64,000 bases of DNA from Callorhinchus milii. Taxonomy: Eukaryota. The position numbers and the translations under genes were made by a program. The first letter of the stretch is position 1; every line of letters begins with the position of its first letter. Below the pieces are notes generated by a model. That model did no database searches and was not told the origin of the DNA. It saw only the letters and a list, made by a program, of their open reading frames with translations. Below are positions 914-57,660 of the stretch, piece by piece. The stretch spans positions 9,302,001-9,366,000 of the forward strand of contig NW_024704742.1 in assembly GCF_018977255.1 (NCBI RefSeq), in the 5' to 3' direction.

Positions 914-1771
914 ACATTGTTGCCAGGTTAAATTAACATAAGGAATACTTGAAAAAAATCACAAACGTTACTCCTATAATTATTATGGAATTGTACCTTA
1001 TTAGGTTATAAGGCTGACAGAAACATGGGTCACTGCCAACTGGACATTGTTCTGCCAGGAATCCCTGTATACTGGAGAATACTAGCAGTTAATAATACAA
1101 TCTATCTTGTATCTTACTTCTAAGAATGACCCCCACATTCCTTGATATTACAGAGATAGCCTATGCTATCCAGCATGTATTGACTTTGCCTACAATCATT
1201 TTTTCTGCTTTGATTAATTTTGATAATAATTTTAGCAAACTATTTAATATTGTGGGTGTGAAGTTAATTCTGTATTGGTCATAAAATATACAGCCAATTC
1301 ACTTTACAATGTATTCTGTGAAGCACTTTGAGATGTCTCGAAGACGTGATAAGGCGCTATATCAAATGCAAGGATTCTTCCTATTATTATTATTGCTGGA
1401 TTAGCATTCATTTCAGTCGCTGTGTTGCTTCCCGACCAACACATCCATCAACCTTCAGGAGACGAATGAGAAACGTGAAGCTGAGAAAAATATGTAACAA
1501 TCCAGTTAGCTCAAGTCCTATTTGTGCTTTTCTTTGTGGCATTCTACTATATTTTGCTATAAGCTACTTAGTTCCAGAAATGAGAAGTATTTTTCAAATG
1601 TCAGCAAATCTTTTACAAAATCTCTTAACGCCACTTTTTCCATTCTGAAATGAGGGACTTTGTGTATCCTGATTGTTCATGTTCGAGTGACTAAATAAAG
1701 TAGGCATTGATTGCGTAAGTTTAAAATGTTCCTTTGGTGGAACAAGTACCGAGGCAGCCTTTCTCTTGTCT

Positions 1772-2046
1772 CACATTGGCGGGCGGGCCTTCAGCCTCTC
1801 TGTCCTCACCATCTGGAACTCCATCCCACAGCCACTCCGCCTCGTCCCTTCCCTTGCCTCCTTCAACACCTGTCTCAAGTACCCCTTCTTCAACCTTCGG
1901 TTACCCTCCCACTACCCTCCCCGCCCTCTACCCCTCTTGATCCCAACCACCAGCTCAGGTGCGAATCTCTGACTGTTCAGCACCTTGGGACGTCCTCCTG
2001 ATGTGAAAGGTGGTATACAAATGTCATTTATTGTTGTTGTTGTTGT
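1772..2046 (+). mobile_element. L2 LINE 3' end
   Basis: IGGRAFS..TIWNSIPQ ORF2 end, C-rich UTR, GGGACGTCCTCCTGATGTGAAAGG stem-loop, (TTG)n tail. Confidence 0.9.
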
Positions 2047-2759
2047 AGGACATGCAGAAAGAACATGCCTGTTGAACACCTTTCAGCCTGATCTTGATCT
2101 ATCTTATGCTGATAACCAAAACCAGCATTCTTTTCAATGTGTTTATAACAGGAGTTGGATTTCTGCATATGTAAAGGCTTTGTGAAAAGTTGGCAATTCT
2201 CAGCGATAAACGTAAGTAAGTCTGCGTAACAATTCAAGAAGGGGCACCATTAAGACATTAGAATCATAGAATTATGCAGCACAGAAGGAGGCCAATCGGC
2301 CCATCGTGCCCATGAAAGAGCTACCCAAATTAATCCCACTCCCCCACTCTCTCCCCGCATTATACCCCGTGGTATTAGAAGCTGATTAAAGGCATTTTGG
2401 TCCTTCCTCCTACACACTTTCTTACATAAACACCATCAGCAGAAGAGCATGCAGATATAGGCTAACATTACACTGTGTGCTGTGTACTAATTTACAACTC
2501 AATATTTCTTGTTGACTGTATTGCTGTGTGTCACGCAATTTTATAATCTGTCACGACTCAGCAATATTTACACATAAACAGCAGTCAGAGTAGAAAAGGG
2601 AAAAAAAAACTTAGACCGATGGTGGAAATATCTAAGCATATATAATTTTATTAAACTATTAATCCAGTACTCTACCGCGCATGAAGAGCGCTATATAAAT
2701 GCAAGTTGTTGTTGTAATCATTTTATGCTAGAGGATGTTAAACTTCAGTTGTTACACCC

Positions 2760-2958
2760 CACCACCACTCCCCGAACCTCCGTCTTGGCCCCTCTTTTTC
2801 TACTTTAACTACCATCTCAAAATCTACCTCTTCGAACATGCCTATGGCCACCTCCTCCTTTCCATCTCCCCCTTTCCCTTGCTTGGCATCCCACCCCGTC
2901 TTTGTAAAATACCCTAAGCTCTTACCCTCGATGAAGGTACTACATATATGCAAGTTGT
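2760..2958 (+). mobile_element. Old L2 3' fragment
   Basis: Degenerate LKIYLFEHAYG end and ATGCAAGTTGTT tail. Confidence 0.6.
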
Positions 2959-3612
2959 TCTAAACTATTTTACTAAAACCGATGGCAAGGGTTAAAATCT
3001 TTGAAATGACAGCTCCACCACACAAGCACATTTAGAAGGTTGGAATGTTTTGCCAGCTAACAGGATAAGCTTCACCCCACCTCTCTCCTCAAATACTCAA
3101 CCATGAGTATTTGTTTAATTTAATGTTCTTCATGATGTTACAATAACCAGATGTTGCTTTTTACGATTAGATTTGAGAAGAATCCTATATCTGATCCAGG
3201 TTGTACCTTGGGTGAGAGTATTTATGGCTGTCAGGTGTGAAGCAGATAAAAGGCTTGTGCTTCCACTTATGGCCTCTTAACTTGATGGTGTCACAATTGT
3301 CCAATCTCACCCTCCACATGGGATTAATCGGCTCACGTTCTCCCACTACAAATTTCAGGGCTCACGCCTCTCACCAGAAAACTAATTTGTTTCTGAATGT
3401 TTCTTGTTAGATTGACTTATTCTGACATGTTTAGAAATCTTGTACGTTGGATTATCCACGGATCTTGCTTGTCAAGTTACTGCAACACACCAATGTGATG
3501 CAGGGAATCAGTAGGCAAGGTTTGTGAATTCACACATTACTTTTAGGTGATGTATCTAATTGTTGGGTAATTTCCCAGTGAGGTGACTCTGCGATTGTGT
3601 ACAATGGGTTAT

Positions 3613-3980
3613 CATCCTGTAGCTCAGTGGTTGGAGCACTCACCTTGCAAGCAAGAGGACCTGGGTTTGATTCCCAGTAGGGCGAAAAGTTGGCCAAGTT
3701 TCCTAACTCCACACACCTCGGTTTACCGAACAGTTAGTAGGAACTTGGTTCTTAGTCGATTGGTGGTTGCTTTTCTGGGGGTAATAATCCTTCAAAAAAA
3801 ATAATAATTTGGACACCAATCCACGACTGTTTGTGGGATACTGCTGTGCGCAATTGGCTGTTGAGTTTTGCCCACAAAATATGCAGTCAATTCACTTTAC
3901 AGTATATTCTGCGAAGAGTTTTAAAAGATTTGAGGATGTGATAAGATGCTATATCAAATGCAATGATTATTATTATTATT
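3613..3980 (+). mobile_element. Young tRNA-Ala-derived SINE, full length
   Basis: TAGCTCAGTGG A-box, GGTTTGATTCC B-box, family body, (ATT)n tail. Confidence 0.92.
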
Positions 3981-4149
3981 ATCTCTGTCTCCTCGTGTTC
4001 TTGTTCTCTCTGGTGAAGCACATGTGTGACATGATTCCCTCGAAAGGGGGGAGAGAACATGACATGTTCTCCCTCAAAGGGTTGGGCTCCCAAAACAATG
4101 TGGTCCCAGGTCTGACTGTACCACTTTGTACCATTTGTAGTTACACCAC

Positions 4150-4390
4150 CTGGACCTCAAGTAAGGCAGAGGGATGAGGGTGGAGGAGGAGGAGACCAGA
4201 GGAGCATTTAAAGAGGTAGGACTTGAGGTGAAATTTAAAGGTAGAAGCAGAGAGGAGACAGAATAGTAGAGGGAGGGAGTTTCAGAGGTTTGGTCACTGA
4301 TAGTGCCTAGGGAGGGTAGGAGCCCACAGCAAGCCCGAGTTAGCTGAGTGCCGGAGGCAAATGGAGGAGTAAATTAGAGAGGATTAGAAA
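4150..4390 (-). mobile_element. Old L2 3' fragment
   Basis: Purine-rich reverse match to the L2 ORF2 end (GGAGTTTCAGAGG). Confidence 0.55.
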
Positions 4391-4609
4391 GAGGATCACC
4401 TTATTCAGTGTGGAAACTAAATTAAGTGTAAACAACAACATGTTGTAAAGTGTAGCACTAATATATTTTGACAATTACATTAGAACTTACTGTCACATTT
4501 AAAAGTATATTAAGATATTATAATTTTCTAACAGCACTATGGTACTTCACCACAAAGTAAATCAATCTTGAATTACAATTTGTGAATTATACTGATGTGC
4601 ATATAATCT

Positions 4610-4800
4610 TCGAGACTCTCTCCCTCAATCCCTCCGCCTTGCCCCCTCCCTCCCTACCCACTTTCAAATCCTGCCTAAAGATCTTCCTTTTTGATCGTGC
4701 TTATGGTCATCCTCTCGCCCTGGTAGACTCTGCCACTGTGAAGTGCTCTGGGACGCTATCCCACGTGAAGGGAGCTATATAAATGCAAGTGGTTGTTGTT
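4610..4800 (+). mobile_element. L2 3' end (second tail variant)
   Basis: FKSCLKIFLFDRAYG followed by GGGACGCTATCCCACGTGAAGGG and a (GTT)n tail. Confidence 0.8.
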
Positions 4801-5369
4801 GAAATAGTATTTGCGATAAGTTATTGTGAAGAAGATCCAATTAGTACATATGAAAGATCACATATGAATTTGGTGAAGTACTTTCAGTTCTGAGCAAATG
4901 CATCTTTATTGGAAAATGATGAAAAAGTAATTGAAAATCAATAGAAAGTGCCATCTATTTGCATGAGCATTGATGATCCTTTTGTATATTTATCCTTTAG
5001 TTCTCTCAGGTATCTGCATGCCACTGCTCAGATTAGAACTACTTGATGTGTGAAATGCAAACCAGACAATGGGAATTATTGTAGCTTTATATCATTGTCT
5101 GGATGGGCCAAATGTAAGCATTATTATATCATTATTCTCAATAAAGTTTGGGCAATAAGCAAAGGCATTTTCCACAACTTCGATTTTTTTAAAAGCCACT
5201 TTTTTTTAACTTAAGAGCTAAGATAAGTTCTAATCATGTATGGGTCCTATATCCTATACAATGGTTTGCTTAACATTTTGAAAGGGCTGTTTTAGTGAAG
5301 TCATTGAATTCATTTAGCAGAGTGGGGGTTAAAACAGGTGCATGAATGTCATTTGAAACACCTCCTGTG

Positions 5370-6867: not shown

Positions 6868-7608
6868 AAACAAATGACAAATGAGATTTGTAAAGTGCCT
6901 TTCACATCAGGAAAATGTCCCAAGTGCTGGACAGTCAGGGGTTTGGCCTAGGGAGCGGACATGTTGGTAGGGGGTTAGCAGGTCACAGAGGTAGGGATGG
7001 GCAAGGTTGTGGAGGGCCTTGAAGTTGAGGATTTTGAACTCTATTGTTTGGGGGATGGGGAGCCAGTGGATCCAGGCAAGGGTGGGGGTGATAAGGTCAC
7101 GGAGCCTGGTGTGAGAGAGGGCACAAGCTGCAGATTTCTGGATGATCTGCAGTTTGTGGAGGGAAAAGTGGGGAGGTCGACAAGCAGGGAGTTGGCGTAG
7201 TCGAACCTAGATGTGATGAATGTGTGGATGAGGATTTCAGCAGACTGAGGGCAGAGTCAGTGGCGGAGCCGGGCAATGTTATGGAGGTGGGGAAAGGCAG
7301 AGCGGGACATGGCACGGATGTGGGGTAGAAAGGACAGTTGAGGATCAAACAAGACGCCAAGGTTCCGGACTGGCTTAGAAAGGTGGAGTGTGTAACCATG
7401 GATGGTGATGCTGTCAGCGCCTGATGTGTGGAAGAACTGACGGGAGACAATCTGGAGGGCCTCGGTCTTGTTGTCGTTCAACTGTAGAAAGTTAGCTCTC
7501 ATCCAGGACTTGATGTCTGACAGACATTCTGTCAGGACAGCAGTGGACCTGGAGTCGAGGGTGGAGACAGAGGGATAGTGTTGGGTGTCATCCGCATACA
7601 TGTGGAAC
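6868..7608 (-). mobile_element. L2 LINE, 5'-truncated at the RT YADD motif, internally deleted
   Basis: MYADDTQHY...WMRANFLQLNDNKTEAL...[14 protein letters not shown], with frameshifts. Confidence 0.93.
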
Positions 7609-12514: not shown

Positions 12515-12880
12515 CTAATTGAGATCTTTAAAATTATGAAAGGTTTTGACTGGGTAGACATAGCGAATATTTCCACTTGTGAGTGAGACTAAAACCAGGG
12601 ACAATCAATATAAAAGAGTCACCAATAGATCAAATAGGGAAATCAGAAGAAACTTCTTTAACAAGAGAGTAGTGGGAATGTGGAACCTGCTACCACAAGG
12701 AGTAGTTGAGGCGAAGAGCATAGATGCATTTAAGGGGAAGCTAGAGAGGTACATGAGGGAAAAAGGAATAGAAGGTTATGCTGATAGGCTTAGTTGAGGG
12801 AAGGCAGGAGGAGGCTCATGTGGAGCATAAACACCAGCCTAGACCAATTGGGCTGAATGGCCTGTTTTTGTGCTGTATAG
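12515..12880 (+). mobile_element. CR1 LINE 3' end
   Basis: RRNFFNKRVVGMWNLLPQGVVEAKSIDAFKGKLERYM, CR1 ORF2 C-terminus; GGGCTGAATGGCCTGT tail. Confidence 0.92.
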
Positions 12881-13871: not shown

Positions 13872-14354
13872 TTTTGGTCAGCCGGGTGACTGATACATGT
13901 GGAAACCTATCACCGTGATTAAGGGTATCCAAACCAAGCTTAGATTTCCATGCATCCCATCTACACATGGAAATCCCAGAGCTAGATTGCTGGAATGGAA
14001 TGCACACTCTCTCATAGAAACATAGAATTATACAGCACAGAAGGAGGCCATTCAGCCCATCGTATCTGTGCCAGCTCTTTGAAAAGAGCTTCCAAATCAA
14101 TCTCAAGCTCCATATAAACCTCCTCCTGCCCTTCCTCAACTAAGCCTATCAGCATAACCTATTCCTTTTTCCCTCATGTACTTACCTAGCTTCCCCTTAA
14201 ATGCATCTAGGCTATTCGTCTCAACTTGCCTTGTGGTAGCAAGCTCCACTATTAGGCGCAGGTTGGCAACAGGCAAGATTTGGGGAGCCAAGAGTGTGCA
14301 TTGGGGTAACTCCTAGAGTTTAACCAGCTAAAACCGAATAGCTTGCCATTGATA
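13872..14354 (-). mobile_element. Unclassified structured interspersed element, copy A (split by CR1 at 14013-14248)
   Basis: Aligns with 22191, 44772 and 54032; strand inferred from the A-rich end and G-U pairing. Confidence 0.8.
14013..14248 (-). mobile_element. CR1 3' end
   Basis: CATAGAAACATAGAA terminal repeat, GGAGGCCATTCAGCCC, reverse complement of the 12515 copy. Confidence 0.9.
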
Positions 14355-21782: not shown

Positions 21783-22190
21783 ATATATAGGTGTTTTTAT
21801 TATTAATTAGTCTCATCGTATCACTGTGCTATCTTGTCAGCATTATGTTTCGCCCACAAAATACACAGTCAATGAAATGCACTTTACAGTATATCCTGTG
21901 AAGCACTTTGAGACGTCTCGAAGATATGTTAAGGTGCTATATCAAATACAAGGATTATTATTATTATTAAAGTGCCCGGAAACACAAGGAGGATGAGAAG
22001 CCATGCTGTTGGATGGTCATTAGTGCTTTGATTTGAACCAGAACTAGTTGTGTTGTGTATTCGCCTTGGGACATTCTCCCGATGTGAATGGCACTGCATA
22101 AATGTAAATTTTTATTGTATTGAACGTGAAGGGCAAGACTGTAAATTACCATTGGGGCTCATCTGTCCTGAACATTGCCAGAAAGTTTCC

Positions 22191-22775
22191 TTTTCTTTGG
22201 TCAGCCGGGTGTCTGACACATGCAGAAACCCACCAAAGTGCTTAAGAGTATCCAAACCAAGCTGAGATTTCCATGCATCCCACCTACACACGGAAATCCC
22301 AGAGATAGATTGTTGGAATGGAATAGCACTCTTTCCCTGGACAGACACTTCCTGTTTACCTAATTCTAGAAAGTATTAGGTGTAGGTTGACAAGAGCAAA
22401 GACTTGGGGACCCCAGAGTGTGCATTGCGGTAATTGCTGGAGTCTAACCAGCTAAAACGACAGCTTGCCATCGATGTCGCTGTTTGGCAAGCTTTCCCGC
22501 TGCTTGTCCAGCTAGGACCACCCTATCCGTTAGTGCTTTGCAGGATTAACAGGAGCTGAGTGAGATGACTCCCTGCCCGCAGTGACTCCCTGCCTTCCAG
22601 GTCCAGCTGTTGAGCCAGACTGGGCTGTGCTGTCATCAGCAGTGCCCTGGAATACTGCGGACCGGCCCGGCTCAGGAACCGGACTAGAGACGGTCACAGA
22701 GGGCTGGCTCCATTCTGACATTCCATTGTCAAACATGTCACCTTAGAGCCACTTCAGCTCCGAGGAGACCCTGCT
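22191..22775 (-). mobile_element. Unclassified structured interspersed element, copy B (apparently full length)
   Basis: Collinear with copy D over about 580 bp; multiple internal inverted repeats; no ORF or recognisable tRNA head. Confidence 0.85.
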
Positions 22776-23451
22776 TAATTTCCATTGCCCAAACCATGGG
22801 AGCAGCTCTTCTATCCCTTGGGATATTGTTGTACAAGGACAATGAAATGGCCTCTGCAGATGTGCTGAGTAGCTTGGCGGCAATGCTGCAGCTGGTGTAG
22901 GAGGCAGATACTTGCTGCCTAGAAACAGAAGAGTTCTCACTTTAACTCATTCAATTTACTGGAAAAGGGAATCTTCCTCCTGTCGAGCTGCTGTCAAAAC
23001 CATTGCATTGAGTTGGGAGAAGGAAGGTCATTTTCCTGCACAGTGTAAATAAATGAACCCAGAATAAAGGTTAGTGCAAATCAGTTGTCCGTCCCATTGC
23101 AATGATATGCTTGCCCAATGGTAACAGTCCCTGCATTCCTAAAGTAGTGAGCTTTTGTCTAAAGTTGTAATAATAATAAAATTATAATAATCCTTGCATT
23201 AAATGAAGCACTTTATCATGTCGTCGATGTACTTTACAGTGCATCGACGACTGTAAAGCGCAAGTGAAAGTGGCACTTAATTTGCGCACAGCAATGTCCC
23301 CACAAACAGCCATGATGTTAGGGTCGTGGCACATTACATTCCTCTAATACGTGGTACACTAGCACATCATGTACTGTTAGCTGCTACTCAGCACAAACTG
23401 TTGAAAGCTCCAGCAGGAGCTGAGTGAGGGAGAGAGAGAGTGAGCAAGATT

Positions 23452-24610: not shown

Positions 24611-24919
24611 AGGGAGCTGTGGATACTTCCAACTCGGCTCCTGTTAACCCTACAAGCCAAAGCCTCTGTGGGTGAGGCTGTGCTAGCTGGACAAGCTTGC
24701 TAGATAGTGTTTGCAATTGAAAATTATGCGGTTTTAGCTTTTTAAGCTCCAGCAGGGTGTGTATGTGTGTGTGTCTCGGGGAGAGAATGAGCATTCCATT
24801 CCAGGGTAAGGGGAGATTTGCATGCGTAGGTGCAACTCTTTGCAGTTTAGTTTGGATGTTTGTAAGCAGGATGATGGGTTTCTGCACGTTTCGGTTACAC
24901 AGCTGATGCAAAACAAAAA
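24611..24919 (+). mobile_element. Unclassified structured interspersed element, diverged copy C (opposite orientation)
   Basis: CTCCTGTTAACCCTACAAGCCAAAGCC, GCATTCCATTCCAG and GATGGGTTTCTGCA are reverse complements of blocks in copies B, D and E, in the same order. Confidence 0.75.
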
Positions 24920-30819: not shown

Positions 30820-31315
30820 ATGACCCGGCTTCGATTCCCGGGCAGGGTAAAACCTTAGGCAAGTTTGATTACTCCAAATGCTTCTGTTTACCTAACAGTA
30901 AGTAGGAATCCAGTCCACAGAATCATAGAATATTACAGCACAGAAGGAGGCCTTTCGACCCATTGTGTCTGTGTCAGCTCTTTGGAAGAGCTCTGCTCTT
31001 TCACTATAACCCAGCAATTTTTTTCCTTTTCAAGTACCTATCTAATTCCCTTTCGATTCAAGGGAATCATCTAATTCCCCAAGTTGTTGATAATTGGTGG
31101 ATCACTTTCCGGGGGTAATAATCCCTTCATAATAAATAAGAATTTGGTCACTCAATCCATGACTGTTTGTGGGACACCACTGTACACAATTGGCTGCTGC
31201 GTTTCTCCCACAAAATATACAGTTAATTCACTTTACAGTTTATTCTGTGAAGCGCTTTATGACGTCTCAACAACATGATAAGCCCTACATCGAATGCAAG
31301 AATTATTATTATTAT
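30820..31315 (+). mobile_element. Young SINE split by a minus-strand CR1 3' fragment (about 30918-31075)
   Basis: SINE body stops at GGAATCCAGT and resumes at AGTTGTTGATAATTGG; the insert begins ACAGAATCATAGAA. Confidence 0.8.
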
Positions 31316-37247: not shown

Positions 37248-38400
37248 CGGACCTGCTCTTGCCTGTTTCGATTCCTATCTCTCTCACCGTCTCCACTTTG
37301 TTGCCTCTAACGGTTTCTCCTGTCACGTCTGGCGTCCCCCAGGGCTTTGTCCTTGGCCCTCTCCTCTTTAGTATCTACATGCTCCCCCTTGGTGACATCT
37401 GCATACATGGGGTCAACTTCCACATGTATGCGGATGACACCCAACTCTATCTTTCTGCCTCCACCCTCAACTCCAGGACCACTGCTGTCCTGACAGACTG
37501 TCTGTCAGACATCAGGTCCTGGATGAGAGAAAACTTCCTACAGTTGAATGTGAACAAGACTGAGGCACTCCTGATTGGCTCGCGCCAGCGCTTCTGCACC
37601 TCAGGTTCAGGCAGCATCAACCTCTATGGTTGCATACTACAACTCACCAAACCAGTCAGGAACCTCGGTGTCTTGTTTGACCCTCAACTGTCTTTTCTTC
37701 CCCACATCCAAGCCATGACCCACTCTGCCTTCCCTCACCTCCGTAACATCGCCCGACTCCGCCACTACCTCACCCCTCAGGCCACTGAAACTATTGTTCA
37801 TGCCTTCATCACCTCCAGGCTCGACTATGCAAACGTCCTGCTTGTCGGCCTTCCCAACTCCTCCCTCCATAGGCTGCAGATAATCCAGAACTCTGCAGCC
37901 ATGTCCTCTCCCACACCAAACTCCGTGACCCCATCTTCCCCATTCTCACCCGATTCCATTGGCTCCCTATCCTTCAGAGGTTCCAGTTCAAAATCCTGGT
38001 CCTCACCTAAAAAGCCCTTCTTGGCCTCACCCCACCCTACCTCTGCAACCTCCTAACCCCCTACCAACCCACCCGCTCCCTCCGCTCAGCCGGCTCTGGC
38101 CTGCTCCATGTTCCCCGACCCACCCGCCCCACCATTGGCGGGAGAGCCTTCAGCCACTCTGCCCCCAACCTCTGGAATTCCATCCCCCAATCACTCCCCC
38201 TTGCCCCCTCCTTAACCTCCTTTAAGTCCTGCCTCAAGACCCTCCTCTTTGACCATGCCATCGGTCACCTTTCCTCTCCAATCCCCTCTCCTCCCTGACC
38301 CCAGCTCGGGTCTGAAATGCTGTACACTGTCCAGCACCTTGGGACGTCCACCTGATGTGAAAGACACTATACAAATGTAATCTTGTTGTTGTTGTTGTTG
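37248..38400 (+). mobile_element. L2 LINE, longest copy (RT domain to 3' tail), frameshifted
   Basis: [18 protein letters not shown]...[14 protein letters not shown] motifs; (TTG)n tail; preceded by another L2 tail at about 37150-37245. Confidence 0.95.
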
Positions 38401-40656: not shown

Positions 40657-41047
40657 TAATAATCATAATAACCTTGCATTTGATATGGTGCCTTATCAAG
40701 TCTTCAAGATGTCTCAAAGTGCTTCACAGTAAATACTGTAAAGCGAATTAACTATTTTGTGGGCGAATTGACTATTTTGTGGGTGAAATGCAACAGCCAA
40801 TTTCGCACAGCACTTTATCACAAACAGTTGTGGATTGAACGACCAATTTATTATTATTTTCTTTGAATCAATTATTCCCCTGGAAAAGCGATCCGATGAT
40901 CGACTAACAGCTGGTTTCCTACTTACTGCTAGGTAAACAGAGGCGTGTGGAGTAAGGAAACTTGCCCAACGTTTCATCCTGCTGAGAATCGAACTCAGGT
41001 CTCCCACTTACGAGGCGAGTGCTCTAACCACTGAGCTACAGGACTCC
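40657..41047 (-). mobile_element. Young tRNA-Ala-derived SINE, full length with a 20-bp internal duplication
   Basis: Family match; GCGAATT(A/G)ACTATTTTGTGG occurs twice. Confidence 0.92.
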
Positions 41048-44771: not shown

Positions 44772-45372
44772 TTTTGGTTTTGGTCAGCTGGATGTTTGAC
44801 ACATATGGAAACCTATCACCATGCTTAAGTGTATCCAAACCAGATTAAGAGTTCCACATATACATGTCACCCACACATGGACATTCCCACGTTATGGAAT
44901 GGAATGTAATTCTTCCCTCCAAGGAAAACATCCTGCTTACCTAATTCCAGGGACTATTACGGCAGGTTAGTAACACTTCGGGACTTCGGGACTCCAGAGT
45001 TTGTTCGATTATTGCTGGATTTTAACTAAAACCACACAAACAGACATGCACACTTACACAATGCATTAAACCCCTGTCTGACAAGCTTTCCGGCTGCTCG
45101 TCCAGCTGGGACCACCCTACCCCTTAGGGCTTTGGCTTGCAGGGTTAACAGGAGCTGAGTGGGATAACTCCCTGCCCCCAGTGACTGGTCTGACCTTCCA
45201 GGTCCTGCCGATGAGCCAGACTGGGCTGTGCTGTCATCAGCCCTGGAATACTGCGGACCCGCCTGGCTCAGGAACCAGACTAGAGACCATCACAGAGGGC
45301 TGGCTCGATTCTGACAGTCCATTGCCAGGCATGTCACCGGGGAGCCAGTCCAGCTCCAAGAAGATCTCGCCT
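44772..45372 (-). mobile_element. Unclassified structured interspersed element, copy D (apparently full length)
   Basis: Collinear with copy B and loses similarity at the same distal point. Confidence 0.85.
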
Positions 45373-47332
45373 CCCCCGGCCCTGCAAGGAGGATAGTGAT
45401 TAAGTTGTTTGTAATATTACTGAGTTAGTGGAGGGAAAACATAGGATGTGATGTGATGGTATTCATCAGTAATAATTAACGTACTGCTAATTACAAATTC
45501 TCTCCCCCACCGATCCTTTATTCTTTCTCTGTTATGAAGGAAAATTCAGATTGCCCAGTTTGCTGAAAGTCACTATCAGTTAAACAGGGCAGAATCTAGT
45601 TCTTTTCTCTCTGTGGGGCTACTTTTCATGTAACGTCCTTAAGTAATGTTTGATTGGAGGCTGCAACTGAGTGATTAGGACAACCATTGATTGTTGTATT
45701 TGTATTGTTTAAGGCTGAACGACCACTGACTCTCATCTCAATCTCTGTCTCCCATTCTTGTACTTTGAACCCATTCCTAAAATTAGAAACCATTTTAATT
45801 GGCCCCTGACCTGGTGATTGATCATGTTTCAGTTGTATTGGTGAGAAAATTGTTTCACATGATGTTAAGGGAAACATTTTCATCCAAATGCCATGCAGTT
45901 AACTTACATCCAGGGATAAAGTAGTTCCTCTTGGAGTGCTGTCTCAAATCCAGTTGTTCCACATATCCTTGCCAACAATCCCCAGATTGAAAAAAAATGT
46001 TATTCCCTTGAAAGTTGTTTGTGGGACAGTTGTGCACAAATTGATTGCTGTGTTTGCCTACGGAATACACAGTCACTGTATTTTGTAGGAAAACACATGG
46101 GATTTATGACCCAGAGGTGAGAGTGCTGCTGACTGAACCAGCCTAAATAAAAATACTTTGAATTCAGGCTACATTTCGATTTTCAATGAAAAAAATAATA
46201 TTTTCACAGTAAAGTGAAGCGCTTTGAGACATCCTCCCATTGTTAAAGGTTATATTGAATGCCAAGCTTATGATTGTTATTACTAATACCTGTTATATCA
46301 TTATTATTACTTAGCTGACAGAAATGGAGTGGGGAGGTGTCAGCTGTAATTATGTTGAAAGTGATGCAGATGACATATAATAAAAATGTTAATTAATGTA
46401 CTTGACCTAGAATGTCTAAAAAGTATCATATTCTACAACAGCTGCCTTTTCCAGTTGTCCTTTTACTTTCTCCATTTGCCCTTCACGTTTAGAATTGTTT
46501 TTGAATGAAACGCTGTTTGATTTTTTTTGCCATGCTGCAAATTAGTGTGAGATTACTAATTTATAATGACATTGCTTTGCTGAGGTGGAAAGTCTGCTCT
46601 TGTTTATTGTGGTATTCAAGAGACATTACATTGAAATTTCCATAAAACAGAGCCAGCAGATCTCAGCTAGAGTAACTTTCTTTGTTGACACATCAACTTA
46701 AAGCGGTTCCATTAAAGGAAAAAGAAGTTAGACACAGGTGGAGTATTTCACAAGATATTAATAACCCTTATATTTGATATAACGCCTTTTGTGTCAAGAG
46801 GATGTCTCGTAGTGCTTCACAGGATATACTTTAAAGTGTTGTGGCTGTGTATTTTGTAGGCGCAGACAGTAAAGGATTAGTCCCACAAATAGAGCAGAAA
46901 GAGCACATCGAAGCAGATCAGTGCAGTGTATTTAAATAATATGTGGCTTGATGACAGAGCTACCACACAATCTGTTTCAGACTCCAGAGAACACTTATAC
47001 GTTAGGACTGTATTTGAAGATGTTCATCTGTGGAGATTTATGGGCAGTTTTGTGAAGAATTACAAAAGCCTGCCCTGAACTCATTTCACTTAAGATCTTC
47101 ATAATTGACTATTTTACACAAAGGACAGTTAGTACGTGAAGCAGTTTGCTTAGGGAAATGTTGGAAGCAGATAATATGGGCTGTTTCAAGGTGGAATTGG
47201 ATAGCTTTATGGATAATGAAGGAGTTTGAGTGATTTGTGAGATAGGGAGAGATGGTATTTGAAATGGAATGAGTCAGATGTACTGTAGGGGTTATTTCTG
47301 GGCCTGTACACTTCATATATCACATGTAGTTG

Positions 47333-49328: not shown

Positions 49329-49699
49329 AATAATAATCCTTGCATTTGATATAGCGCCTTATCACATCTTCGAGATGTCTTAAAGCACTTCACAGAATAT
49401 ACTATAAAGTGAATTAAGTATTTATTTTCAGGCAAAATGCTGCAGCCAATTGTGCACAGCAGTGTCCCACAAACAGTCGTGGATTGAGTGACCAATTTAT
49501 TATTATTATTTTTTTGAAGAAATTATTACCCCCAGAAAAGCCATCTGCCAACCGACTAATACCTAGGTTCCTAATTACTGATAGCTAAACAGAGGCATGC
49601 GGAGTAAGGAAACTTGCCCAACATTTTGCCCTGCAAGGAATCAAACCCAGGTCTCTCACTTGCGAGGCGAGTACTTTAACCACTAAGCTACAGGTCTCC
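49329..49699 (-). mobile_element. Young tRNA-Ala-derived SINE, full length
   Basis: Family match. Confidence 0.92.
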
Positions 49700-51114: not shown

Positions 51115-51599
51115 ACAACAAGATTACATTTGTATAGTGCCTTTCACGTCGGGAGAACATCCTAAGGCGTTGGACAGTGTACAGCATGTCAAACCCGACC
51201 TGGGGGCGGGGGGCGGGGGGGAAGGGAGAGGAGGGGAAGGGGATGGCCAATGGCATGGTCGAAGAGGAGGGTTTTGAGGCTGGACTTGAAGGAGGCTAAG
51301 CAGGGGGCGAGGCGAAGTGACTGGGGGATGGAATTCTGGAGGTTGGGGGCAGAGTGCCTGTAGGCTCTCCCGCCAATGGTGGGGCGGGTGGGTCGGGGGA
51401 CGTGGAGCAGGCCAGAGCCGGCTGAGCGGAGGGAACGGGCGGGTTGGTAGGGGGTTAGGAGGTCGCAGAGGTAGGGTGGCGCGAGGCCATGGAGGGCTTT
51501 GTATGTGAGGACCAGGACTTTGAACTGGATCCTCTGAAGGATAGGGAACCAATGGAGTCGGGTGAGAATGGGGGAGATGGGGTCACGGAGTTTGGTGCG
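51115..51599 (-). mobile_element. Young L2 3' end inserted in a SINE tail (host about 51073-51755)
   Basis: Uninterrupted ORF2 end LHWFPILQRIQFKVLVLTYKALHGLAPPYL; TATCA at 51110-51114 and 51600-51604. Confidence 0.94.
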
Positions 51600-53370: not shown

Positions 53371-53693
53371 ATAATAATAATAATCCTTGCATTTGATATA
53401 GTGCTTTTCCCATCTTCTAGACGTCTCAAAGCGCTTCACAAAATATACTGTAAAGTGAATTGACTGTATATTTGTGGGCGAAACACAACAGCAAATTGCA
53501 CACAGCAGTGTCCCACAAACAGTCATGGATTGAAAATGACCAATTTATTATTGTTTTGTATTTTGGAGGGATTATTTATTATTAGGTGTGTGGTGTAAAG
53601 AAACTTACTCCATAAGGTTCTGCCCTGCCTGGAATTGAACCCAGATGTCTCGCTTGCAAGGCGAGTGCTCTAACCACTGAGCTACAGTACTCC
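53371..53693 (-). mobile_element. Young SINE, short subfamily
   Basis: Diagnostic short-form junction. Confidence 0.9.
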
Positions 53694-54031: not shown

Positions 54032-54335
54032 TTTTTATTCTTTGGTCAGGTGGGTGTCTGTCATATGCAGAAACCCATCACCATGTTTAATTTAGAGTTT
54101 CCAAACTAAGGTGAGATTTCCATGCATCCCACCTACACATAGAAATCCCAGAGATAGATTGTTGGAATGGAATGCACACTCTCTCTTCCTGTAAGCATGA
54201 ATCCTGCTTACCTAATTCCGGAAAGCTTTAGGCGCAGATTGACAGGAGCCAAGGCTTGGGGACCCCAAAGTGTGGGTTGGGGGAACTGCTGGAGTCGAAC
54301 CAGCTAATAAAACAATATAGCTTGCTATCAATATA
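54032..54335 (-). mobile_element. Unclassified structured interspersed element, copy E (about 300-bp form)
   Basis: Aligns with the proximal half of copy B and ends at the same point as copy A. Confidence 0.85.
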
Positions 54336-56260: not shown

Positions 56261-57044
56261 TGCAGTGTTGCCTTTCCTGCCGAGTTTTGCAACTTGCATT
56301 GCAAAGATTATTATTTGCATTGCAAGGATTATATATTACTTACATTTATGCCTAAGCAAAGAAATACATTTCCAAAAGATAGGTGAAAACATTTGAAACC
56401 AAGCCTTACAAGGACTTGGATACAAATGTGTAACACCACATATCAGATGTTTAAAAAAAAACAATTTGAGTTTGAGGCTGAGGGCAGCTCTCCCATGACA
56501 GCAGAAGATCAATTTTGAATCCAATTTCTGTGAGGATGAAACTGATGTTCTGATGTTCTGCTTGAGGAGATTCCGAAGCTGAAAGCAAAGGTGTGGGTAG
56601 CGGGGAATATCCTCAGTCAAAGAAAACTGAACAATTCCTCTCTCAGTGCAGTGAGCAGGTGCAATAATAATAATCTTTGCAGTTGATATAACTCCTTATT
56701 ACGTCTTTGAGACATCTCAAAGCACGTCCAGAGAACTGGGTTAGTGAGGGACTGATACACATGTAAGTGTGAAATTCACGCACTAGCGAGATGAGTTATT
56801 CTGGTTTGAGCTTTTATTGTTTTTGATTTTTAAATTCCTGTATTTTGATTTTTTTCTAATAGTTTCCATACTGGTTCTCTCCAATTCCCTCCATCTTCCC
56901 AAAAGAAAAGAGAAGGTCCGGGTTTGTTTGATTTTTTTGAAATCTTATTGTTGTGACTTTCTTATATGTTACAAAATGATTTTCCTTTTCATTGGTTGTT
57001 AATTAAATGATTAAGGGCACCTGAAATCTCTTGTTAAGTTTACA

Positions 57045-57660
57045 AGTGGAATATAGTACACATGGTTTACACATGGAAAATAACACACATGGTTTACACA
57101 TTGGAACATTGGAACACACTATTTACACATGTAGCATAACACACGTGGTTTACACATGGATCATAATACATGTGGTTTATACATGGAACATAGCACAAAC
57201 TATTTACACATGCAGCATAATACACATTGCTTATACATGGAGAATAACACACATGGTTTACAATTGGAATACAACATGCACTATTTACAAATGTAGCATA
57301 ACACATGTGCTTTATGAATGGATCATAACACACATGGTTTACACATGGATCATAACACACGTGATTTACACATGGATCATAACACACGTGGTTTACACAT
57401 GGTGCATAACACACGTGGTTTACACATGGAGCAAAACACACGTGGTTTACACGTGGAGCATAACACACGTGGTTTACACGTGGAGCATAACACAAGTGGT
57501 TTACACATGGATCATAACACACGTGGTTTACACATGGATCATAACACACGTGGTTTAGACGTGGATCATAACACACATGGTTTACACGTGGAGATAAAAT
57601 ACGATATACGGATTGAACACAGCACATGTGGTTTAAGCATGCAGCATGATGCACGTGGGT
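57045..57660. repeat. 27-bp minisatellite, consensus ATGGATCATAACACACGTGGTTTACAC, about 22 units
   Basis: 9-residue periodicity in three ORFs; homogeneous core at 57318-57590, degenerate edges. Confidence 0.95.

What the first reader, a model, noticed from the sequence alone, without database searches (positions are those of the whole stretch)
22191..22775. Five-copy ~580-nt non-coding mobile element that looks like a highly structured RNA
Seen: copies at 13872, 22191, 44772 and 54032, plus an inverted copy at 24611-24919, share one end, which reads ...CACCCGGCTGACCAAA plus an A-rich tract on the minus strand. There is no ORF, TIR pair or clear tRNA head. Stems occur throughout: GATTTCCATG/CATGGAAATC (13943/13966), AATGCACACTCT/AGAGTGTGCATT (13999/14291, 12 bp), ACCTAAT/ATTAGGT, GCTGG/CCAGC, AGCTTGCCA/TGGCAAGCT (22462/22485), TGAGCCAG/CTGGCTCA (45212/45263), GGGCTG/CAGCCC, TGACAT/ATGTCA and a terminal GTCAG/CTGAC. 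Several mismatches in copy B become G-U pairs only on the minus strand. Known: a fixed 3' end with a stem-loop and variable 5' ends is typical of LINE-mobilised RNAs. Inference: a retroposed structured RNA (atypical SINE, LINE UTR or unknown ncRNA) whose tail is unlike the L2, CR1 and Tx1 tails here, so its partner LINE is not visible in this window.
Basis: partly seen in the sequence, partly recalled or inferred. Interest (0 to 1): 0.72.

Follow-up and report, generated by a model that had tools for sequence, protein, structure and literature searches.

The report
Truncated LINE retrotransposon 3' ends
The five repeats are dead, front-truncated copies of the tail end of an old, very abundant LINE retrotransposon, which is an ordinary component of a vertebrate-type genome.

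Summary
The sequence facts hold. Five copies share one 3' end, with the window's minus strand as sense, and every quoted stem motif sits at its stated coordinate.

The ~587-nt piece is not a unit of its own. The genome gives 11,666 first-look candidates. Longer copies continue upstream into a reverse-transcriptase ORF (Pfam RVT_1 above cut-off), a C-terminal CCHC motif, and traces of an AP-endonuclease domain. Copy coverage falls off towards the 5' end. Three copies have exact flanking duplications of 10-12 nt, and three more have 8-nt ones.

The finding is therefore the 3' UTR, plus probably the last ~89 codons of ORF2, of a 5'-truncated LINE. It ends in a conserved GTCAG/CTGAC hairpin and a short A-rich tail.

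There is no Pol III head and no Rfam match. Covariation is no better than shuffles. Individual copies fold no better than random window segments, with z about -2.7 against -2.5. Only the majority sequence stands out, at z -6.1.

5' ends pile up at a G-run near the ORF2 end in 17 of 30 copies. They are scattered over ~35 nt and occur in both subfamilies, so this is a truncation hot zone and not a SINE.

Verdict: ordinary, low interest.

The parts
22188..22791 (-). Copy A: 5'-truncated LINE 3' end (profile positions 1095-1698 of a 1713-nt RT-end-to-tail scaffold)
   Evidence: nhmmer E 2e-205. It is 90.7% identical to the family majority. A possible 7-nt flanking repeat GGCAATG is weak and could be chance.
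22526..22791 (-). Part of copy A derived from the C-terminal end of ORF2 (decayed; the boundary is approximate)
   Evidence: In natural longer copies the ORF2 frame runs through LLGG into ...EVS(G/R)VSLELNW, matching the relatives' LLGGEIDGVGVRNW. The subfamily II majority stays open for 89 codons to a TAG. Local alignment scores are z 2-4 against 5 of 7 relatives. A profile of the relatives' C-termini was not significant. This part is inference.
22199..22525 (-). 3' UTR of the LINE in copy A
Evidence: It lies between the stop-codon equivalent (mapped by eye) and the terminal hairpin.
22200..22217 (-). Terminal hairpin GTCAG-ACACCCGG-CTGAC directly before the tail
   Evidence: Pattern match at 22200. 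The hairpin is near-invariant across the 30 aligned copies (columns ~655-673).
22188..22198 (-). Short A-rich tail (sense: CCAAAGAAAAGG...)
   Evidence: Tails in other copies are 6-12 nt, mostly A, sometimes preceded by a run of C.
44772..45410 (-). Copy B: profile 1067-1697. It reaches ~30 nt further 5', into the LLGG/G-run region.
   Evidence: nhmmer E 2.9e-156. It is 83.4% identical to the majority.
54035..54334 (-). Copy C: profile 1414-1696 (last ~300 nt only)
   Evidence: nhmmer E 6.3e-83
13872..14354 (-). Copy D: profile 1557-1691 (13872-14013) and 1415-1518 (14250-14354), interrupted by a 236-nt insertion of another repeat at 14014-14249
   Evidence: nhmmer E 7e-42 and 4.3e-27. The insertion has other copies in the window and in the loci.
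24621..24919 (+). Copy E: opposite orientation, profile 1314-1698, the most diverged copy
   Evidence: nhmmer E 1.4e-38. A possible 8-nt flanking repeat TTACATTC.

Best explanation
The repeats are insertions of one old non-LTR retrotransposon (LINE) family. They were made by target-primed reverse transcription that started at the RNA's 3' end and stopped early. Only the 3' UTR (~325 nt), and in the longest window copies the last ~89 codons of ORF2, were copied into the genome.

The full element encodes an ORF2 with AP-endonuclease, reverse transcriptase and a C-terminal CCHC motif. Its RNA ends in a conserved 5-bp hairpin (GTCAG/CTGAC, 8-nt loop) followed by a short A-rich tail. This is the likely place where the element's own RT binds and primes.

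Shown: homology to RT-bearing copies, 5' truncation, flanking duplications, and absence of a Pol III head.

Inferred: the hairpin is the RT recognition site; the pile-up of 5' ends at the G-run near the end of ORF2 is a place where reverse transcription tends to stop; the window copies are now inert.
For: (1) Upstream continuity.
- 30 of 30 fetched best copies align over the unit. The profile search shows 8 of 30 extending further 5', to profile position 1022 or lower.
- Walking upstream gave copies whose coverage decays 5'-wards.
- These copies encode RT: RVT_1 36.6 bits (cut-off 29.6) on L064 and 35.6 bits on L072, with RQGCPLSP and FADD motifs.
- A CPSCG...H....C motif lies ~40 codons before LLGG.
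- An endonuclease end (DHVVVS...SDHWP) aligns to the Exo_endo_phos domain of relatives. L074 against P0002 gives E 1e-6. L076 against P0003 residues 326-388 gives E 1e-4.

(2) Relatives. 13 proteins at E <= 1e-5 among 1613 candidates, up to 37% identical. All 5 scanned carry Exo_endo_phos and RVT_1, and all 7 inspected end with CCHC...LLGG.

(3) First-look candidate numbers fall from 11,666 (UTR) to 4,194, 1,224 and 139 (endonuclease end). This is a rough gradient, because the queries and search modes differ.

(4) Flanking direct repeats of 10, 11 and 12 nt abut both ends in L015, L022 and L026. Repeats of 8 nt do so in L011, L014 and L017. In all, 12 of 37 copies had an exact repeat of 7 nt or more.

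(5) No tRNA, 5S or 7SL match.

(6) Copies whose 5' end lies in the hot zone occur equally in both sequence subfamilies, with 4 long to 9 hot-zone copies in each (Fisher p = 1). Their TSD-defined ends are scattered over ~35-45 nt.
Against: - No full-length or intact copy was found, and every RT-bearing copy examined is broken. The domain order is therefore pieced together from different copies and from relatives at 37-43% identity.
- Pfam did not call the endonuclease on the three fragments scanned.
- 17 of 30 best copies have their 5' end within 34 nt (profile 1076-1109). That is far denser than the ~30% loss per 100 nt seen further upstream. A discrete sub-element could also produce this.
- The 30 copies are the best-scoring of 11,666 candidates, not a random sample.
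- The 7-8-nt flanking repeats could be chance. By my estimate about 4 seven-mers and 1 eight-mer are expected among 37 copies. Only the 10-12-nt ones are safe.
- The coding status of the first ~260 nt rests on short motifs. The profile test was not significant (E 0.6-1, no better than reverse-strand controls).
- Subfamily I carries -2/+1 indels in that stretch.
Confidence: 0.92

Rival explanations
1. A head-less, SINE-like non-autonomous element consisting only of the LINE's last ~590-620 nt. It is transcribed or processed as its own RNA and mobilised in trans by the LINE's proteins through the shared 3' hairpin and tail.
For: 17 of 30 best copies begin within profile positions 1076-1109, right at the G-run. 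First-look candidates for this piece (11,666) outnumber those for the next piece upstream (4,194) about threefold.
Against: - No Pol III-type head.
- The 5' ends fixed by flanking repeats differ from copy to copy: about 1065, 1066, 1082, 1101-1105 and 1109.
- Hot-zone copies and longer copies share both subfamilies equally, so there is no separate lineage.
- 5 of 30 best copies and most incidental copies are shorter still, as expected from plain truncation.
Confidence: 0.05
2. A retroposed cellular structured non-coding RNA (an unknown ncRNA gene and its retropseudogenes), with the structure under selection.
For: The majority sequence folds much better than shuffles (z -6.1 sense against -3.8 antisense). 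The window copy gives z -4.2 sense against -2.5 antisense.
Against: - Homology runs without a break into RT coding sequence.
- No Rfam family at E <= 10 apart from three chance-level rows.
- Covariation equals shuffles on all five measures.
- Of 4 subfamily-diagnostic differences, none is compensatory.
- 7 single copies (mean z -2.7) do not differ from 5 random window segments (mean z -2.5).
Confidence: 0.02
3. A DNA transposon or solo LTR.
For: Many of the best hits have a seemingly discrete ~590-nt length.
Against: - No terminal inverted repeats: the two ends read GGAGGTAAGCGGGG... and ...CCCGGCTGACCAAAA.
- Variable 5' ends, an A-rich 3' tail and flanking repeats of variable length, 8-12 nt.
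- RT of the non-LTR type lies upstream, and the relatives carry an AP endonuclease.
Confidence: 0.01

Closest known systems
5'-truncated LINE (non-LTR retrotransposon) insertions in general
   Same: A common 3' end, variable 5' ends, an A-rich tail and flanking duplications of variable length. Longer copies carry RT and an AP-endonuclease upstream.
   Different: Nothing of kind. The family itself could not be named because no Repbase or Dfam library is available here.
'Stringent' LINEs whose RT recognises a 3' stem-loop (eel UnaL2, zebrafish L2-type elements).
   Same: A conserved hairpin sits immediately before the tail, near-invariant in the 30 aligned copies.
   Different: The tail here is a short oligo(A)-like run rather than a short tandem repeat. 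Recognition of the hairpin by the RT is untested. The clade is not L2 as far as can be told.
L1/Tx1 superfamily
   Same: The order endonuclease, RT, then Cys-His motif; an A-rich tail; heavy 5' truncation.
   Different: The closest full-length relative, P0003, matches human L1 ORF2p only over the RT core (E 6e-24, barely better than R2 at 2e-20) and has no zf-RVT hit. The genome's genuine L1/Tx1-like element, L075, matches L1 ORF2p at 3e-74 over endonuclease plus RT and has zf-RVT. The Cys-His spacing here is C-x2-C-x10-H-x4-C, followed by ~40 residues, LLGG and a further tail.
Unnamed ORF2 proteins P0002-P0009 (1289-1562 aa) from public genome and metagenome assemblies
   Same: 37-43% identity over RT and the pre-RT region. 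The motifs are colinear: endonuclease end, RT, CCHC, LLGG, and a V-A-R-F-L-like motif.
   Different: Their 3' UTRs could not be seen.
tRNA-headed SINEs with a LINE-derived tail, such as the elephant-shark CmiSINE/SacSINE1-CM with the L2-2_CM tail (PMC5499810, passages read)
   Same: Short, abundant, non-coding today, and retroposed by LINE machinery.
   Different: No Pol III head, no fixed 5' end, and direct continuity with RT coding sequence. Whether the window's genome is that species was not established.

Membership tests
LINE (non-LTR retrotransposon), 3' end | Reverse transcriptase ORF colinear and upstream in longer copies | tested here: met
   RVT_1 36.6 and 35.6 bits against a cut-off of 29.6. 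Colinear blastn chains run from RT to the tail in L061, L064, L051, L035 and L030.
LINE (non-LTR retrotransposon), 3' end | Endonuclease (AP-type) N-terminal to RT | tested here: inconclusive
   Pfam called nothing on 3 fragments. The motifs LLLMGDWN and IDHVVxS...SDHWP are present. They align to the Exo_endo_phos region of relatives at E 1e-6, 1e-4 and 5e-6. All 5 scanned relatives have the domain.
LINE (non-LTR retrotransposon), 3' end | Common 3' end with graded 5' truncation | tested here: met
   All window copies end at profile 1691-1698 and start at 1067-1557. Coverage decays upstream. Candidate counts fall from 11,666 to 139.
LINE (non-LTR retrotransposon), 3' end | Target-site duplications of variable length flanking the insertion | tested here: met
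   Repeats of 10, 11 and 12 nt in L015, L022 and L026, and of 8 nt in L011, L014 and L017. 12 of 37 copies have a repeat of 7 nt or more. The short ones may be chance.
SINE | Pol III head derived from tRNA, 5S or 7SL RNA | tested here: not met
   No Rfam match at gathering threshold nor at E <= 10 for these families. ARAGORN found none.
SINE | Discrete 5' end and its own lineage | tested here: not met
   5' ends are scattered over profile 1065-1109. There is no association with subfamily.
L1/Tx1 superfamily | Strong similarity to L1 ORF2p beyond the RT core, and a zf-RVT C-terminal domain | tested here: not met
   Relative P0003: 6e-24 over the RT core only, with no zf-RVT. Control L075 from the same genome: 3e-74 and zf-RVT at 31.6 bits. 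The test was made on a relative because the family's own ORF2 is too broken.
Structured RNA family (Rfam-type) | Covariation supporting a conserved secondary structure | tested here: not met
   Covariation score 0.102 against a shuffled 0.103, with 332 of 500 shuffles as high. RNAalifold covariation term -1.17 kcal/mol. Copies of one transposon decay neutrally, so this test has little power.
Structured RNA family (Rfam-type) | Folding energy beyond composition-matched shuffles | tested here: inconclusive
   Majority sequence z -6.1. Single copies mean z -2.7 (7 copies). Random window segments mean z -2.5 (5 segments).
DNA transposon / LTR | Terminal inverted repeats or LTR pairs | tested here: not met
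   The ends are not complementary. The flanks of 30 loci are unrelated apart from other repeats.

The most novel reading that the evidence does not exclude
The long 3' region is a functional RNA module of an unclassified, non-L1 LINE clade (endonuclease, RT, CCHC, LLGG tail). In this reading the terminal hairpin and the many ancestral stems (majority z -6.1) are what its RT recognises. The pile-up of 5' ends at the G-run marks a sub-genomic, UTR-only RNA that is retroposed in trans, that is, a SINE without a Pol III head.
Probability: 0.07. Interest if true: 0.45.

Novelty: new member of a known kind. Interest (0 to 1): 0.12.

Why it matters
It matters little for biology at large. It is a decayed LINE tail of a kind that fills vertebrate genomes, and the family is probably already in repeat libraries that could not be consulted here.

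It is useful for annotation. The five window segments, and on the order of ten thousand genomic ones, should be masked as one LINE family rather than treated as an RNA gene.

It is also a caution for sequence reading. Many stems, a fixed 3' end and ragged 5' ends are the signature of truncated LINE copies. Perfect stems in single copies can arise from CpG decay.

Two minor points could interest transposon specialists. The family's ORF2 is not L1-like despite the Cys-His motif. And 5' ends cluster at a G-run near the ORF2 end.

Tried and rejected
- Rfam at gathering threshold on the whole window gave only tRNA-like SINE heads. Rfam at E <= 10 on 22150-22830 gave three chance-level rows: SNORA17, SNORA16 and SOX2OT. 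ARAGORN found none.
- Covariation: RNAalifold, pair counting on the majority MFE structure and subfamily-diagnostic differences all showed no signal.
- A profile of 7 relatives' C-termini against translated copies gave E 0.6-1, no better than reverse-strand controls. The ORF2 extension therefore rests on motif matches and shuffle z-scores only.
- Pfam on endonuclease fragments found 0 families.
- Naming the clade failed. The ESM Atlas gave only generic endonuclease/RT clusters. Cluster look-up gave no names. One literature search, with passages of PMC5499810 and PMC4350176 read, gave no family name. A second search was rejected for term syntax and not repeated.
- Earlier findings of this scan: none for this genome.
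- Expression: no RNA holder was listed. Laying four runs gave only short repeat-derived contigs, with the same profile in the three runs guessed to be RNA as in the best holder of the stretch (kind not on record). Nothing could be said about a transcript.
Upstream walking went on with single small stretches.
- No full-length or intact copy of the family was found in 8 own-genome searches.

Full report
**What is in the window**

The window belongs to a 991-Mb eukaryotic assembly. It is crowded with tRNA-headed SINEs.

A profile built later from genomic copies places them at:
- 22188-22791 (-)
- 44772-45410 (-)
- 54035-54334 (-)
- 13872-14013 with 14250-14354 (-)
- 24621-24919 (+)

All five end at the same profile position, 1691-1698, and start at different ones, 1067 to 1557. 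Copy D is split by a 236-nt insertion of another repeat. The sequence observation is therefore sound.

**The unit is not 580 nt and not five copies**

A search of the window's own genome gave 11,666 first-look candidates. The 40 scored matched at 80-86% identity.

In an alignment of 30 of them with flanks, many share extra sequence upstream of the supposed 5' end. I walked upstream by search and by small fetches. This gave copies whose coverage decays towards the 5' end and which encode, in order:
- the end of an AP-type endonuclease, with motifs LLLMGDWN and IDHVVxS...SDHWP. These align to the Exo_endo_phos region of relatives at E 1e-6 to 1e-4. Pfam itself called nothing on the fragments.
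- a reverse transcriptase, with RVT_1 at 36.6 and 35.6 bits against a cut-off of 29.6;
- a CPSCG...H....C motif;
- about 40 codons later, LLGG encoded by a variable G-run.

One natural copy, L061:5298-7010, is colinear with others from the RT end to the tail. It served as the coordinate scaffold.

No RT-coding part of the family lies in the window.

**Retroposition marks**

The tail after the terminal hairpin is 6-12 nt, mostly A, sometimes preceded by a run of C.

Exact flanking repeats abut both ends in several copies:
- 12 nt in L026
- 11 nt in L022
- 10 nt in L015
- 8 nt in L011, L014 and L017

In all, 12 of 37 copies examined had an exact repeat of 7 nt or more. By my estimate the 7-8-nt ones could partly be chance, while the 10-12-nt ones could not.

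There are no terminal inverted repeats. The best copies are on average 90.7% identical to the family majority, range 83.4-94.0%. It is an old family, and every coding copy seen is broken.

**Where ORF2 ends**

In natural copies L041, L052 and L064 the ORF2 frame runs through LLGG into ...EVS(G/R)VSLELNW. This lines up with LLGGEIDGVGVRNW of relative P0003.

In the subfamily II majority that frame stays open for 89 codons. It passes a VVRFLS motif like the relatives' VARFLS/VALYLS and ends at a TAG. Local alignment of this frame scores z 2.0-4.0 against 5 of 7 relatives; the other two frames do so for at most 2 of 7. A profile of the relatives' C-termini was not significant. Subfamily I has -2 and +1 indels in this stretch, yet stays open for 113 codons.

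My reading, at about two in three, is that the first ~260 nt of the unit are the decayed end of ORF2 and the last ~325 nt are the 3' UTR. In copy A the boundary falls near 22525.

**The 5' pile-up**

The 30 best copies have these 5' ends:

| 5' end (profile position) | Copies |
|---|---|
| 1022 or lower (extend further) | 8 |
| 1076-1109 (hot zone) | 17 |
| 1121-1152 (shorter) | 5 |

This is far denser than the roughly 30% loss per 100 nt seen upstream. Three things argue against a separate element:
- The ends fixed by flanking repeats differ from copy to copy: about 1065, 1066, 1082, 1101-1105 and 1109.
- The two sequence subfamilies (16 and 14 copies) each hold 4 long and 9 hot-zone copies (Fisher p = 1).
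- There is no head sequence.

I read this as a zone where reverse transcription tends to stop. The zone holds a variable G-run and, just 3' of it, a 9-bp inverted repeat, CCTTGGAGC/GCTCCAAGG in the consensus. This mechanism is inferred, not shown. The sample is also the best-scoring 30, not a random one.

**RNA structure**

Z-scores against dinucleotide-preserving shuffles:

| Sequence | Sense | Antisense |
|---|---|---|
| Copy A | -4.2 | -2.5 |
| 7 copies, mean | -2.7 | -1.9 |
| 5 random window segments, mean | -2.5 | not run |
| Family majority | -6.1 | -3.8 |

Single copies are therefore unremarkable here. The ancestral RNA was probably rich in stable local hairpins, more so on the sense strand, and the copies have since decayed.

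Covariation is absent:
- The RNAalifold covariation term is -1.17 kcal/mol.
- On the majority MFE structure (191 pairs) all five measures equal their shuffles. For example, the score is 0.102 against 0.103, and 21 pairs changed on both sides against 24.0 expected.
- None of the 4 subfamily-diagnostic differences is compensatory.

This test has little power on neutrally decaying copies. It removes the evidence for a selected structure without disproving one.

It is perfect only in copy D.

No Rfam family fits, and the '5S A-box' has no Rfam 5S match.

**What kind of LINE**

The nearest full-length proteins in public collections are unnamed, 1289-1562 aa long, and all carry Exo_endo_phos, RVT_1, and a CCHC...LLGG tail.

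P0003 matches human L1 ORF2p only over the RT core (6e-24, against R2 at 2e-20). The genome's genuine L1/Tx1-like element, L075, has an uninterrupted 1151-codon frame, matches L1 ORF2p at 3e-74, and has zf-RVT.

The family is therefore an AP-endonuclease LINE outside L1/Tx1. Its clade could not be named with the tools at hand.

**Expression**

Nothing could be learned about expression.

**Verdict**

This is an ordinary, old, heavily 5'-truncated LINE family seen from its tail. The structured-RNA and SINE options are not supported.

Noticed in passing
window, many sites, e.g. 40974-41045, 49626-49697, 53620-53691 (-): A tRNA-headed SINE is extremely dense. There are 15 Rfam tRNA matches at gathering threshold and repeat families with up to 23 copies in 64 kb.
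   Followed up: no
window 57033-57646: A tandem array with a 27-nt period, at least 15 overlapping register copies at 62-79% identity.
   Followed up: no
window 7169-7607 vs 37418-37856; 37914-38267 vs 51244-51597; 6-364 vs 37937-38295: Long inverted pairs (82-91% complementary) of another repeat family. They lie in G+C-rich, strongly GC-skewed stretches (6-8 kb, 16-18 kb, 36-38 kb).
   Followed up: no
window 14014-14249: A 236-nt insertion of another interspersed repeat splits copy D. Further pieces lie at 12680-12826, 30919-30992 and 2259-2307, and in five fetched loci.
   Followed up: partly
L075 (G000:C122:60000-67500), 1463-4918 (+): An uninterrupted 1151-codon frame with endonuclease, RT and zf-RVT domains, E 3e-74 to human L1 ORF2p. 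This is a genuine L1/Tx1-like LINE of this genome, unrelated to the family studied except at ~35% identity in the RT.
   Followed up: partly
alignment A1 columns 123, 131-132, 196, 635 (copy A about window 22650-22700): The LINE 3' end has two subfamilies (16 and 14 of 30 copies). They differ by a 2-nt and a 1-nt indel inside the probable ORF2 end. Both versions keep a long open frame (113 and 89 codons) in the majority sequence.
   Followed up: partly
L068 (G000:C5:54233000-54239500), reverse strand 2814-3400: The C-terminal part of one copy of the family directly abuts the 5'-truncated RT start of another copy. This is a nested or adjacent double insertion.
   Followed up: no
L032-L060 and L061-L074, several loci: A recurrent repeat appears next to many LINE copies. 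One of its frames reads ...KARSKRKVLRPALKEEREEARRRHW..EFQSLGAERLKARPPMVG....
   Followed up: no
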